Positions 24,612 to 27,234 of a DNA stretch of 64,000 nt are shown here, in pieces. The notes under the pieces were generated by a model. The model saw only the letters and a list, made by a program, of their open reading frames with translations. It was not told where the DNA came from and ran no database searches. A program made the position numbers and the translations under genes. How positions within the stretch are numbered: position 1 is the first letter of the stretch; each line of letters starts with the position of its first letter. The stretch comes from Escherichia phage adrianh. The stretch lies in sequence record MN850614.1. One strand, 5' to 3'.

Positions 24612-24677
24612 ATTACTAATCAACGGGAGGCGACAACCTCCCCACTAAATAAAACCCTTAAACTAGGAGATTCAAAA
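24608..24677 (+). promoter_or_regulatory. Cassette B copy 6 (variant loop GCGACAA)
   Basis: GGGAGG..CCTCCCC stem retained, loop differs. Confidence 0.55.
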
Positions 24678-24926
24678 ATGGCAACTATCCGCGCTACTGT
24701 TAACGAGTTCGGTTTTTCCTCTCTGGATGTTAAATTTGACATTGTAGGCACTGATAACGCCTTTGAAATGGTGAAAGGTCTTATCAGTCAGACCATCAAA
24801 GGCTATAATCCTTCTAAGGAGTTCTGGGAGGAAACAAAACAGGAAGTTCTTAAGGATGGTTACACTTATCACTATTGGGGAGAAAAAATCGTCTCCCTGT
24901 ACTACGACAAACAAGATTATAACTAA
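24678..24926 (+). CDS. Hypothetical protein
   Basis: 82 aa ORF. Confidence 0.45.
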   Translation: MATIRATVNEFGFSSLDVKFDIVGTDNAFEMVKGLISQTIKGYNPSKEFWEETKQEVLKDGYTYHYWGEKIVSLYYDKQDYN

Positions 24927-24964
24927 TCGGCGCAGCGGGGCTAAATAGCCCCAGATACCTTTAC

Positions 24965-24992
24965 AGCCCCTTTCCCATAGGGGCTTTTTTAC
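24965..24992 (+). terminator. Rho-independent terminator closing the plus-strand small-gene block
   Basis: AGCCCCT..AGGGGCT hairpin then TTTTTT; second hairpin just upstream at about 24937-24952. Confidence 0.6.
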
Positions 24993-25419
24993 GTCTATCC
25001 AATCCTCATACAACCCCTTTCCCTTTCCTTTCCAGAATCTTATCAGACCTTAAAAAGCAATAACTTTACAGCCTTTTACTAAGTCAATTAATTGGCCTTA
25101 TTAATAAGCCCTTAAACATAAGCCAATAACCCCAGAAAGGGGGCAACCCATTTAAACGCCATATAAAGCCCTATAACGGCCTTTTTAACCTAACTTAAGG
25201 GATTGCATTACCTCACCCTTAAAAGCCCTTTATAAAGCTTCACAGAGCCTTAAAAGAATCTTATAAGGGTGTAAGCTTTATTATCTCGTTAGCTATCTTG
25301 TGAACTACTAAACAACCCCCTTGATAGTAACTGAAAAGTATGTTATAGGGGCTTTAAAGTTACTTTGAAGTATCTTAAGAGTTACGTAAATGCTAGCCCC
25401 CTTAACATTCTCTTAACAA

Positions 25420-26520
25420 TTTCTTAACAATCCCTACATAGTTATGCTTTTAAGGCACTTGTTAGCAACTTGTTAGCCCCTTGTTAAATCTCTGTTAAGA
25501 CCACGTAAAAGCCTTGTAAGAGTCTTTGACATAGCCTTTAAAGCTTCTGTAAAGCCTTATAAAGAGGTGTCTGTACAGTTGGGGTGTAACTACTAGTGAG
25601 AGACTTAAAAGAGCTTACAAGGAGCTATAGAGAGCTTTTAAGAGGTATGTTTAAGGAATCACTAAGAAAGGAAAGGGAACGATAAGAAAAGAGTAGTGAC
25701 CATGTTAATAGCTTGTTAAAAAGATTAAACACTTGTTAGAAACTTGTTAATTATCTTAACAAAATAACTCTTTAAAATTAACTTGTTAGCTCTTGTTAGT
25801 CATCTGTTAAGCCTCTGTAAAGACTATTCAGCACTTGTTAATTGGTATTGTTACCAATCCCTAGAAAACTGTTAAGCCCTTGTCAGTTCTGTTAAGAAAC
25901 TGTTAAGACCTTTGAAGAGTTGTTAAGAAGATGTGAGAACTGTTAAGAGATTGTTAAGGATATTTTAAAATTTTGCAAAGGGGATGTTACAGGGATGTTA
26001 AGGGCTACCAAGCAGATATACATCCTCTACAGATATTTTTCAGTTCCTTCAAAGACCCTAAAAAAAAAATGACTTGACAGTCTTATTTTATAAAAATTTT
26101 AAAATTCTGAATAATTACCTAGACAGTCTTTTAAAAATACAGGTAGAAACAGGCTTATAAGATACCTTGTTAGTACCGTGTTAGACCTTGTGAGATAAGG
26201 TCTGTGAAGATATTCCTGTTAAGTTTGTTAAAACAGCCTATATAGAGGCTTAGTAATACCTAGTGAACACCTATAGAGGGTAACATAGCTAACCTAGAGA
26301 TTAAGAGGTGTATAGGAGCTTCTAAGAGTGTGTAGAGAGATGGTTAAGGTGATTGTATAGGTTGTTAAGAAGGCTTGTTAGAAGAGTGTTTAGAAGGCTT
26401 GTTAGAGGGCTAGTTAGAAGGGTTATACAGAGGGGCTATTAAGACCACTAGATAGTTACTAAGATACTATATAGTACTATATAACTATATATAGAGAGTA
26501 AGATTAAGAAGGTTGTTAAG
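25420..26520. repeat. Dense array of short TGTTAAG / TTGTTAG-type repeats in a coding desert
   Basis: No track ORF between 25013 and 26629; more than 30 copies of TGTTAAG-like heptamers at 8-20 bp spacing. Confidence 0.7.
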
Positions 26521-26592
26521 AAGGGTAGATATTTTATTCACATATGATGGTGACCCAGAGGTTGGGACAACCGATAAAATTTTATAAAAATT

Positions 26593-26617
26593 AAAAAGCC
26601 CCCCAATTAAGGAGGCT
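26593..26617 (-). terminator. Rho-independent terminator for the minus-strand block
   Basis: On minus strand AGCCTCC..GGGGGGCT hairpin followed by TTTTT. Confidence 0.5.
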
Positions 26618-26628
26618 CTTAAGATATT

Positions 26629-27234
26629 TTAAATGAGTGTTTCCAGAACTGTCTTCAGTGATGACTTGGTTGTCTGATAAAAATGAGTGAAGCCATTGTT
26701 GTTATCAAACACCTGCATCATGATACCATCTCCCTTGATTGGGTACACTCGGATATCATAGTGAAACCCATTAAAGACAGCAGAACCACTACAGAATGAA
26801 CTAAAATCATCTACTGAGATGTACTCTTCATGACCTGTGATTTTTATACAAACACCTTTACTCGGTCTCTTAGGGTTGATATCTTCCATCACAGACATAT
26901 TCTGTCCACCAAGAGATACCATAGTGACCACTTTACGGTTCTTCTGTCTGAAGTACATTTTAACTTTCTGCAAGGTGTCTTCATAGAACGGATAAGACTT
27001 CTCTACAAAGATTCCTTCAAGTGGCTCTTTACCGTTTACAATACCTCTGGTATGTCGTACTGAGAAGATAAGTTGCTCTAGCAGGTCAAGGCTTTCTTCG
27101 GATAGTGCTTCCCTAATATCATTCCAATCAAGTACTAGGTAGTTACCTTCAACATCTTTTAAGTTATCTTTTTCCATATCTATCACACCATTATCGTAAA
27201 ACTTGGTAAGCTGGGACTGCAAACTTGTTGCCAT
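26629..27234 (-). CDS. Hypothetical protein
   Basis: 201 aa ORF. Confidence 0.5.
   Translation of the reverse strand: MATSLQSQLTKFYDNGVIDMEKDNLKDVEGNYLVLDWNDIREALSEESLDLLEQLIFSVRHTRGIVNGKEPLEGIFVEKSYPFYEDTLQKVKMYFRQKNRKVVTMVSLGGQNMSVMEDINPKRPSKGVCIKITGHEEYISVDDFSSFCSGSAVFNGFHYDIRVYPIKGDGIMMQVFDNNNGFTHFYQTTKSSLKTVLETLI

What the first reader, a model, noticed from the sequence alone, without database searches (positions are those of the whole stretch)
25013..26629. 1.6 kb coding desert filled with TGTTAAG-type iterons between converging transcription units
No ORF of 60 codons or more exists on either strand, which is exceptional for a phage genome this densely packed. The region carries more than 30 copies of TGTTAAG / TTGTTAG / CTGTTAAG heptamers at short irregular spacing, plus local direct repeats (GACAGTCTT...TTTTA at about 26050-26110) and an ACTATATA-rich patch near 26460-26500. 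It lies exactly where plus-strand early genes stop and the minus-strand block ends. Such iteron arrays are typical of replication origins, packaging (pac) sites, partition-like sites or binding arrays for a phage DNA-binding protein; a non-coding RNA locus is also possible.
Basis: seen in the sequence. Interest (0 to 1): 0.75.

Follow-up and report, generated by a model that had tools for sequence, protein, structure and literature searches.

The report
Phage genome ends packed with heptamers
The gene-free 1.7 kb stretch is the place where the linear genome of a Felix O1-like phage begins and ends (its roughly 600-bp terminal repeat plus both non-coding end flanks), and it carries a real, helically phased array of TGTTAAG motifs whose binding protein is still unknown.

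Summary
Window 24927-26628 has no ORF of 60 codons or more and no small ORF conserved in relatives. It carries 35 TGTTA cores, against about 6 in shuffles.

The spacing is regular, not irregular: 11 bp, or multiples of about 10.5 bp.

The window is a Felixounavirus. Six related GenBank records begin exactly at the homologue of window 25396. Three of them carry exact terminal duplications of 580-651 bp that end at the homologue of 26009. The published DTR of UAB_Phi87, mapped by Bal31 digestion and run-off sequencing, is the same stretch.

So the desert is one collapsed copy of the direct terminal repeat (25396-26009) plus the two unique non-coding end flanks. Terminators bound it on both sides.

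- 25 of the 35 cores lie in the DTR. Three inverted copies sit at the left end; the rest are forward, so motifs face outward at both termini.
- A 10-bp terminal inverted repeat is present (CCCTTAACAT / ATGTTAAGGG).
- The two boundary blocks are among the most conserved sequence in the gap.
- The motif persists in Suspvirus, Mooglevirus and Kolesnikvirus.

The best reading is a protein-binding array for DNA maturation and packaging, comparable to the CCTAAAG arrays at T7's ends. The binding protein is not identified.

The DTR is already known; the array has not been described. Interest is modest.

The parts
24927..26628 (.). Gene-free terminal region between convergent gene blocks. In a collapsed assembly it reads: right-end flank, one DTR copy, left-end flank.
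   Evidence: no ORF of 60 aa or more; no conserved small ORF in 13 genomes; the same gap exists in Suspvirus and Mooglevirus.
24965..24992 (+). Intrinsic-terminator-like hairpin plus T-run that closes the + strand gene block.
24993..25395 (.). Unique non-coding flank of the right genome end. The top strand is C-rich (G-C skew -0.24). It carries CCTTAAA / CTTAAAAG / CTTATAAG-type octamers but no TGTTAR.
25384..25403 (.). Conserved left-boundary block ACGTAAATGCTA|GCCCCCTT. The left terminus is inferred at 25396.
   Evidence: 98% column conservation in 13 genomes. Six records start exactly here.
25396..26009 (.). Homologue of the direct terminal repeat (614 bp), present once in this window.
   Evidence: Exact terminal duplications in ZX4221 (591 bp), vB_EcoM_E9 (580 bp) and NBEco005 (651 bp) share these end sequences. 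The experimental UAB_Phi87 DTR sequence matches. Mapped onto the window.
25399..25408 (.). Left arm of the 10-bp terminal inverted repeat, CCCTTAACAT.
   Evidence: pair I17.
25401..25429 (-). Three inverted heptamers (CTTAACA at 25401, 25412, 25423) at 11-bp spacing, 6-34 nt inside the left terminus.
25457..25499 (+). Four forward copies (cores at 25460, 25471, 25482, 25493) at exact 11-bp spacing.
25500..25700 (.). Central DTR segment without TGTTA cores. It holds CTNNNNAG octamers (CTTTAAAG, CTGTAAAG, CTTAAAAG, CTATAGAG and others) and a purine-rich stretch.
25703..26002 (+). Main forward array: 17 TGTTA cores (plus one inverted copy at 25757), spaced 10-11, 20-21 or 31-33 bp.
25995..26004 (.). 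Right arm of the terminal inverted repeat, ATGTTAAGGG.
26003..26022 (.). Right-boundary block GGCTACC|AAGCAGATATACA, the most conserved 20-mer of the whole gap. The right terminus is inferred at 26009 (26011 by the UAB_Phi87 run-off data).
   Evidence: 100% conserved in 13 genomes of three genera. A recognisable version is present in Erwinia phage M7..
26010..26628 (.). Unique non-coding flank of the left genome end. The top strand is G-rich (skew +0.27) and carries 8 more forward TGTTA cores.
26058..26117 (.). 85% A+T block containing the conserved TTGACAGTCTTATTTTATAAAAATTT. GACAGTCTT is repeated at 26076 and 26122.
26362..26421 (+). Tandem array with a 12-bp period, TTGTTAGAAGGC x4.9.
26464..26493 (.). 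ACTATATAG tandem patch.
26594..26620 (-). Intrinsic-terminator-like hairpin that closes the - strand gene block.

Best explanation
The window comes from a Felix O1-like myophage (Felixounavirus) whose virion DNA is linear with short, exact direct terminal repeats. The 'desert' is the concatemer junction as it appears in a collapsed assembly. It consists of the non-coding right-end flank (24993-25395), one copy of the DTR (25396-26009) and the non-coding left-end flank (26010-26628). Both flanking gene blocks are transcribed towards the termini and stop at terminators.

The TGTTAAG-type heptamers are oriented binding sites for a sequence-specific DNA-binding protein. They are phased by the DNA helix, repeating every 11 bp or a multiple of about 10.5 bp, so they lie on one face of the duplex. 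The binding protein is not identified. The most likely candidate is the recognition component of the DNA maturation and packaging machinery.

Proposed mechanism. The protein coats one face of the DTR. The outermost, outward-facing copies sit in the terminal inverted repeat CCCTTAACA..11 bp..TAACA. These copies position the nuclease cuts a few base pairs outside them at both DTR boundaries. One junction copy of the DTR is then duplicated during packaging, as in T7-type phages.

What is shown:
- the identity of the locus as DTR plus flanks;
- the reality, phasing, orientation and cross-genus conservation of the array.

What is inferred:
- that a protein binds the array;
- that this protein belongs to the terminase system;
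- that the cuts are measured from the outermost sites.

My confidence is about 0.9 for the locus identity and about 0.45 for the packaging-recognition role of the array.
For: Taxonomic identity. 256 phage records match the region, nearly all Felixounavirus, best 93%.

Termini.
- Six records start exactly at the homologue of 25396: ZX4221, vB_EcoM_E9, NBEco005, Ro111lw, vB_EcoM_D4 and Citrobacter vB_CbrM_HP1.
- Three of them carry exact terminal duplications of 580-651 bp with zero mismatches. These start GCCCCCTTAACAT and end GTTAAGGGCTACC.
- HP1 annotates a repeat_region at 1-570.
- UAB_Phi87 has an experimentally mapped 608-bp DTR (Bal31 plus run-off sequencing). The published sequence is the same stretch to within 2-8 nt (PMC4837284).
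- PhageTerm DTRs of 581 and 613 bp are reported for two other Felixounaviruses (PMC8303462; PMC6454146).

Array.
- 25 of the 35 cores lie in the DTR. Enrichment is far above shuffles.
- The 11-bp phasing is shown.
- The first three copies are inverted, at +8, +19 and +30 from the left end. The last forward copy ends 9 nt before the right end. This layout is identical in Felixounavirus and Mooglevirus.
- The terminal inverted repeat is shown.

Conservation.
- The boundary blocks are among the most conserved 20-mers of the gap.
- Motif-core columns are more conserved than other DTR columns: 0.92 versus 0.82.
- Erwinia phage M7 (Kolesnikvirus) has an exact 444-bp DTR. Only about 115 nt of it align with the query, yet its terminal non-coding region (DTR plus both flanks) carries GTTAAGA x16. 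Copies in the left half of the DTR are inverted; those in the right half are forward.

Specificity. Phased pairs of the motif occur nowhere else in the 64 kb. In a scan of viral contigs, dense arrays were found only in Ounavirinae-sized contigs.
Against: - No binding protein is identified. All ten flanking genes have unknown function.
- No small terminase is recognisable next to TerL.
- The termini of this particular phage are inferred by homology, not measured.
- PhageTerm-type ends and run-off ends differ by 2-8 nt, so the cut geometry is uncertain.
- Eight cores lie outside the DTR in the left-end flank. The flanks also hold other repeat families (CTNNNNAG octamers, ACTATATA) that a pure cut-site model does not need.
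- The related DTR myophage PAK_P1 manages without any such array, and its DTR holds a gene.
- As far as I recall, the analogous T7 arrays have never been shown to be required for packaging.
Confidence: 0.55

Rival explanations
1. Replication origin. The heptamer array acts as iterons for an initiator, and the adjacent A+T-rich block (26058-26117) is the unwinding element. Replication would start at or near the genome ends.
For: - The array is adjacent to an 85% A+T block that is conserved across three genera.
- There is one DnaA-box match at 26534.
- The G-C skew changes sign inside the gap.
- In T7, the promoters phiOL and phiOR lie close to the ends (phiOL is annotated at 405). That they act as secondary origins is from memory.
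Against: - The units are heptamers at 11-bp spacing, not the 17-22-bp iterons of Rep-type origins.
- No initiator-like gene flanks the gap.
- The array is centred on the DTR and organised symmetrically with respect to the two cut sites, which an origin does not require.
- The skew switch coincides with the switch in motif and gene orientation, so it is not independent evidence.
- No sigma-70 promoter with a proper -10 follows the conserved TTGACA.
Confidence: 0.15
2. An end-organising nucleoprotein unrelated to terminase. A phage or host protein coats the DTR and does one of three things: protects the entering ends from exonucleases, pauses DNA entry, or pairs DTRs for recombination into concatemers.
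For: - Phased, one-face binding sites extend over about 1.1 kb, beyond what a cut-site signal needs.
- Copies continue into the left-end flank.
- The single-stranded DTR folds far better than shuffles (z = -5.75 on the - strand), because the inverted end copies pair with the forward array. This could matter after exonucleolytic resection.
- T5 has a repeat-rich non-coding zone in its terminal repeat that is discussed as an injection stop signal (from memory).
Against: - No candidate protein is known.
- There is no evidence of two-step DNA entry in Felix O1-like phages.
- The tight, conserved relation of the outermost copies to both termini favours a role in making the ends.
Confidence: 0.2
3. 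A non-coding RNA locus is transcribed from the gap.
For: - The gap is 1.7 kb without genes.
- Folding energy is below that of shuffles.
Against: - No Rfam match even at E<=1.
- The only terminator-like hairpins belong to the flanking genes, and promoter-like hits are weak 9/12 matches generated by the TTAACA motif itself.
- The folding signal is explained by inverted copies of the repeat.
- The sequence duplicated at both genome ends is defined by DNA cuts, not by transcript ends.
Confidence: 0.05
4. Chance or compositional low complexity: the motif density simply follows from A+T-rich non-coding DNA.
For: The gap has 35% G+C against 39% for the window.
Against: - 30 forward cores versus 3.3 +/- 1.8 in 2000 dinucleotide shuffles (maximum 10).
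- 11 phased pairs versus 0.01.
- The motif is retained across genera whose DTRs barely align.
Confidence: 0.01

Closest known systems
Direct terminal repeats of Felix O1-like phages (UAB_Phi87 608 bp, Pr103Blw 581 bp, Ro111lw 613 bp; M7 444 bp in its record)
   Same: It is the same locus. The window's 25396-26009 is homologous end to end with the published or deposited DTRs.
   Different: In the papers I could search and read, only the length or sequence of the DTR is reported. The heptamer array, its phasing and orientation, the terminal inverted repeat and the 1.7-kb gene-free setting are not discussed.
Heptamer arrays at the ends of phage T7 DNA (called SRL/SRR by Dunn and Studier 1983; the name and their unknown function are from memory)
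   Same: T7 also has a short exact DTR. A strand-biased heptamer sits inside and next to the repeat at a regular spacing: CCTAAAG x3 in the 160-bp repeat and x8 just after it, with TAAAG cores on a 13-bp period. Both phages use a T7-like replication module; the Felix O1 record annotates T7-like polymerase, primase/helicase and exonuclease.
   Different: The heptamer, the period (11 versus 13 bp) and the placement differ. The array is mostly inside the DTR here and mostly outside it in T7. There is no nucleotide homology. T7 has promoters in the flank, whereas here both flanks are downstream of converging genes.
pac site of phage P1: hexamer clusters (TGATCA/G) on both sides of the cleavage point (from memory)
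   Same: Clusters of a short oriented motif flank the terminase cut and are needed to position it.
   Different: P1 packages by the headful mechanism from one pac cut and gives permuted ends. Here there are two fixed cuts about 600 bp apart. P1's motif carries GATC and is Dam-regulated, whereas this window has no GATC at all.
Iteron-type replication origins (lambda ori, plasmid oriV)
   Same: Direct repeats lie next to an A+T-rich block.
   Different: The units are 7 bp rather than about 17-22 bp. There is no adjacent initiator gene. The array is organised around genome termini.
DTR of Pseudomonas phage PAK_P1 (Pakpunavirus, once grouped with Felix O1)
   Same: It is a myophage of similar size with a short DTR defined by read coverage (PMC4309531).
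   Different: Its 1170-bp repeat contains a 200-aa gene and shows no enriched heptamer. The array is therefore a trait of Ounavirinae, not of DTR myophages in general.

Membership tests
Short exact direct terminal repeat (T7-type genome ends) | The same sequence is present at both ends of the linear virion DNA, with fixed, non-permuted termini. | tested here: met
   Relatives ZX4221, E9, NBEco005 and M7 have exact duplications at both record ends. UAB_Phi87 was mapped experimentally by Bal31 plus run-off sequencing.
Short exact direct terminal repeat (T7-type genome ends) | The window carries the homologous boundary sequences in the same order and distance. | tested here: met
   GCCCCCTTAACATT is at 25396 and GTTAAGGGCTACC ends at 26009, giving 614 bp. 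The boundary blocks are 98-100% conserved.
Short exact direct terminal repeat (T7-type genome ends) | Termini measured on the virion DNA of this very phage. | not testable with these tools
   No reads or virion DNA are available. The window holds a single collapsed copy.
Terminase recognition (pac/cos-type) site | Repeated short elements adjoin the cleavage positions. | tested here: met
   Inverted copies lie at +8, +19 and +30 from the left end. Forward copies end 9 and 20 nt before the right end. The layout is conserved across genera.
Terminase recognition (pac/cos-type) site | The elements are bound by a small terminase or other recognition subunit. | not testable with these tools
   No small terminase is recognisable in the window. 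TerL at 41476-43092 has only a 66-aa acidic ORF of unknown function upstream.
Headful pac site | Circularly permuted, terminally redundant DNA arising from a single initiation cut. | tested here: not met
   Independent records and the experimental data give the same two fixed ends.
Iteron-type replication origin | Iterons of about 17-22 bp with the cognate initiator gene next to them. | tested here: not met
   The units are heptamers at an 11-bp period. The ten flanking genes have no Pfam domain, and their PHROG matches are to families of unknown function.
Iteron-type replication origin | An A+T-rich unwinding element, with or without DnaA boxes, adjacent to the repeats. | tested here: inconclusive
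   An 85% A+T block lies at 26058-26117. A single DnaA-box match is at 26534, about 500 bp from the DTR.
T7-type terminal heptamer arrays | A strand-biased heptamer at regular spacing in or next to the terminal repeat. | tested here: met
   T7 ends were read directly and compared with the window.
T7-type terminal heptamer arrays | Sequence homology of the arrays. | tested here: not met
   The heptamers differ (CCTAAAG versus TGTTAAG). T7-like phages were not among the blastn matches.
Known non-coding RNA family (Rfam) | A match to a covariance model. | tested here: not met
   There are no matches in 24800-26800 at E<=1. At gathering score, only tRNAs are found, and they lie elsewhere.
Partition (parS-like) centromere | Repeats next to parA/parB-type genes. 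| tested here: not met
   The flanking genes carry no such domains. The remaining ~23 kb of the genome, outside the window, was not examined.

The most novel reading that the evidence does not exclude
The TGTTAAG array may be a 'terminus code' shared by the whole subfamily Ounavirinae. An as yet unidentified phage protein, in a lineage with no recognisable small terminase, would polymerise along one face of the DTR in a fixed orientation. It would define both cut sites through the outward-facing terminal copies, and possibly hold the single junction copy in a panhandle or synapsed form while it is duplicated. This would be a mode of DTR recognition not described for any model phage, and it would give a defined packaging signal for engineering Felix O1-type phages.
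Probability: 0.3. Interest if true: 0.55.

Novelty: new member of a known kind. Interest (0 to 1): 0.35.

Why it matters
Felix O1-like phages are widely used for Salmonella and E. coli typing, biocontrol and therapy. Most deposited genomes are opened at arbitrary points, and their ends are not annotated.

Knowing that this gene-free stretch is the terminal repeat helps in three ways:
- It gives precise, conserved boundary sequences.
- It lets such genomes be oriented and annotated correctly.
- It explains why assemblies break or collapse here.

The phased heptamer array is a concrete, testable candidate for the packaging and maturation signal of the subfamily. The recognition protein for that signal is unknown. 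Identifying it would allow packaging-signal plasmids, transducing particles and rational genome engineering. It might also clarify the old, unresolved question of what the similar arrays at T7's ends do.

Tried and rejected
- **Conserved small genes.** The three small ORFs of the window are broken by stops or frameshifts in relatives. Rejected.
- **Rfam.** Nothing in the gap at gathering score or at E<=1.
- **Sigma-70 promoters.** Only weak 9/12 matches were found, mostly created by TTAACA resembling a -35 box. The conserved TTGACA at 26074 has no -10 at a usable distance.
- **Host-factor sites.** There is no IHF consensus and one DnaA box.
- **Flanking genes as candidate binders.** Ten proteins were scanned against PHROGs and Pfam. 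All are of unknown function.
- **Small terminase near TerL.** None was recognised.
- **The same phased array outside Ounavirinae.** Dense arrays occurred only in contigs of Ounavirinae size. Two other dense loci (L047, L118) have different, longer iterons and no similarity to the window.
- **Related DTR myophage PAK_P1.** Its DTR holds a gene and no heptamer array.
- **UAB_Phi87 GenBank record.** The copy held is an older version that is not opened at the ends. The DTR sequence was taken from the paper's supplement instead.
- **Literature.** One search was poorly framed and returned nothing useful. I found no paper that discusses the heptamers, but subscription journals are not covered.
- **Relaxed weight-matrix scan for orientation in the left flank.** The result was noisy and only suggestive.
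Full report
**1. What is in the sequence**

The + strand gene block ends at 24926 and the - strand block ends at 26629. Between them the longest ORFs are 35, 34 and 30 aa. The real gap is therefore 24927-26628 (1702 bp). Terminator-like hairpins close both blocks, at 24965-24985 (+) and 26620-26594 (-).

The gap holds these motif counts:
- TGTTAAG: 12
- TGTTAG: 9
- forward TGTTAR: 27
- inverted YTAACA: 4
- TGTTA cores on both strands: 35

In 2000 dinucleotide-preserving shuffles, forward TGTTA averages 3.3 +/- 1.8 (maximum 10) against 30 observed. Pairs 10-11 bp apart average 0.01 against 11 observed. The densest 600 bp of the whole window starts at 25401 with 23 copies; elsewhere the maximum is 5. 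Every phased pair in the 64 kb lies in the gap.

The spacing is regular, not irregular. TRF finds arrays with periods of 10-12 bp. Pooled over nine related repeats, successive forward cores are 11 bp apart 83 times, 20 bp 29 times, and 31 or 33 bp 14 times. These are multiples of the helical repeat.

A looser family, CTNNNNAG, occurs 61 times against about 17 expected from its density in the whole window. It includes CTTAAAAG, CTTTAAAG, CTTATAAG and CTATAGAG. The GACAGTCTT pair (26076, 26122) and the ACTATATA patch (26466-26491) are also present.

**2. What the locus is**

The region matches 256 phage records, almost all Felixounavirus, best 93%. The window is therefore a Felix O1-like myophage.

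Six records begin exactly at the homologue of window 25396: ZX4221, vB_EcoM_E9, NBEco005, Ro111lw, vB_EcoM_D4 and Citrobacter vB_CbrM_HP1. For three of them I fetched both record ends. Each carries an exact terminal duplication (591, 580 and 651 bp, no mismatches) that starts GCCCCCTTAACAT and ends GTTAAGGGCTACC. HP1 annotates 1-570 as a repeat region.

In the window these sequences lie at 25396 and 26009, giving 614 bp.

Independent experimental support comes from UAB_Phi87. Its ends were mapped by Bal31 digestion and run-off sequencing. The published 608-bp repeat (AACATTTTCTTAACAA ... GGGATGTTAAGGGCTACCAA) is the same stretch to within 2-8 nt (PMC4837284). PhageTerm repeats of 581 and 613 bp are reported for Pr103Blw and Ro111lw.

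The desert is therefore the concatemer junction as a collapsed assembly shows it: right-end flank, one DTR copy, left-end flank. Both neighbouring gene blocks read towards the termini.

**3. Anatomy of the array relative to the ends**

Of the 35 cores, 25 lie in the DTR, 9 in the left-end flank and 1 in the right-end flank.

The first three copies are inverted (CTTAACA at 25401, 25412, 25423). Nearly all the others are forward. At each terminus the motif therefore points outward.

Read inward, both ends share CCCTTAACA followed 11 bp later by TAACA. In the window this is a perfect 10-bp terminal inverted repeat: CCCTTAACAT at 25399-25408 and ATGTTAAGGG at 25995-26004.

The offsets are identical in Felixounavirus and Mooglevirus:
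- cores at +8, +19 and +30 from the left end;
- the last core ending 9 nt before the right end.

The G-C skew changes from -0.24 in the right-end flank to +0.13 in the DTR and +0.27 in the left-end flank. This matches the change in motif orientation. A relaxed weight-matrix scan suggests weak inverted copies in the right-end flank, but it is noisy.

**4. Conservation**

Thirteen genomes from Felixounavirus, Suspvirus and Mooglevirus were aligned; identity to the window is 76-96%.
- The most conserved 20-mer of the whole gap spans the right boundary: GGCTACC|AAGCAGATATACA, 100% conserved.
- The left boundary block, ACGTAAATGCTA|GCCCCCTT, scores 98%.
- Within the DTR, core columns are more conserved than other columns: 0.92 versus 0.82.

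The same gene-free gap of about 1.7 kb, bounded by terminators, exists in phiSUSP1 and Moogle.

Erwinia phage M7 (Kolesnikvirus) is the strongest case. Only about 115 nt of its repeat align with the query. Its exact DTR is 444 bp, yet its terminal non-coding region (DTR plus both flanks) carries GTTAAGA 16 times and TGTTAAG 12 times. Copies in the left half of the DTR are inverted and those in the right half are forward. Its right boundary, GGCCACTAA|GTAGATATACA, is recognisably the same.

Selection therefore acts on the heptamer, its phase and its orientation rather than on the sequence between copies. That pattern is the signature of a protein-binding array.

None of the small ORFs is conserved.

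**5. Mechanism**

The best-supported reading is that a sequence-specific protein binds one face of the DTR. The terminal, outward-facing copies would position the two cuts that generate the ends. The single junction copy would then be duplicated during packaging, as in T7-type phages.

That the locus is the DTR is shown. That the array is a binding array is a strong inference. That the binder belongs to the terminase system is a weaker inference.

Evidence against, or missing:
- All ten flanking genes are of unknown function.
- TerL (41476-43092, Terminase_6N/6C) has no recognisable small subunit beside it.
- Copies extend beyond the DTR.
- Other repeat families remain unexplained.
- The related DTR myophage PAK_P1 has a gene in its repeat and no heptamer array.

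Rivals:
- **Origin.** An 85% A+T conserved block sits at 26058-26117 next to the array, and one DnaA box is present. But there are no long iterons, no initiator gene and no usable promoter.
- **End-organising or protective nucleoprotein.** The single-stranded DTR folds with z = -5.75 because the inverted end copies pair with the forward array.
- **Non-coding RNA.** There is no Rfam match at E<=1 and no transcription signals of its own.
- **Chance.** Refuted by the shuffles.

**6. Comparison with what is known**

The DTR of this genus is already published. The array is visible in the published sequence but is not discussed in the papers I could read.

The closest functional analogue is T7. Its ends, read directly here, carry CCTAAAG three times inside the 160-bp repeat and eight times just after it, with TAAAG cores on a 13-bp period. 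The names SRL and SRR, and their unresolved function, are from memory.

The P1 pac hexamer clusters are a looser analogue, also from memory.

A scan of viral contigs for three phased TGTTAR copies found dense arrays only in contigs of Ounavirinae size. Two other dense loci carry unrelated iterons.

**7. Verdict**

The locus itself is a known feature of the genus, the direct terminal repeat and its flanks. What has not been described is the phased, outward-oriented heptamer array conserved across the subfamily, and its unknown binding protein. This is a worthwhile but modest lead.

Noticed in passing
window 1-64000: The tetranucleotide GATC is completely absent from both strands of the 64-kb window: 0 observed against 177 +/- 13 in dinucleotide shuffles. 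This is total avoidance of the Dam/MboI/Sau3AI site.
   Followed up: partly
window 36148-41046: A cluster of 24 tRNA genes lies on the + strand, about 10 kb from the terminal region and just upstream of the terminase gene.
   Followed up: no
window 41269-43092: TerL (Terminase_6N/6C) has no recognisable small terminase next to it. The only ORF directly upstream is an acidic 66-aa ORF (phrog_4397, unknown function). The PHROG TerL profile match starts at profile position 82, so some family members have a longer N-terminus.
   Followed up: partly
window 24672-25013 (-): A 113-aa TTG ORF runs antisense to the real gene 24678-24926.
   Followed up: yes
window 25396-26009, either strand taken as a single strand: The DTR folds much better than shuffles (z = -2.3 on + and -5.75 on -). 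The three inverted copies at the left end pair with forward copies near the right end (arms 25402-25439 and 25931-25968), giving a panhandle. This may be relevant after exonuclease resection of the ends.
   Followed up: partly
GU169904.1 (Staphylococcus phage SA1, 147 kb), 135842-137150; also MG969406.1 (109 kb): A record labelled as a Staphylococcus phage contains 1.3 kb that is 89% identical to this Felixounavirus terminal region. An oversized Salmonella phage record matches twice. Both look like chimeric or contaminated assemblies.
   Followed up: no
L017 2100-2450 (Erwinia phage M7, right-end flank): In M7 the flank upstream of the DTR carries its own repeat family, (G)TCTTCTAA(G), in at least 8 copies. 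Felixounavirus has CCTTAAA/CTTAAAAG-type octamers in the same position. The flank repeats thus differ between genera, while the DTR heptamer is shared.
   Followed up: partly
L047 13950-14200 and L118 6700-6960: Two unrelated viral contigs carry dense iteron arrays built on GTTAA/TTAACAC cores (for example AATTAACATGTTAAAATTCACGTTAAATTCACGTTAA repeated). They show no similarity to the window and are probably origin or operator arrays of other phages.
   Followed up: partly
L147 (PAK_P1 67966-69139): The coverage-defined DTR of Pseudomonas phage PAK_P1 contains a 200-aa gene and no enriched short motif, unlike the gene-free, heptamer-laden DTR of Ounavirinae.
   Followed up: yes
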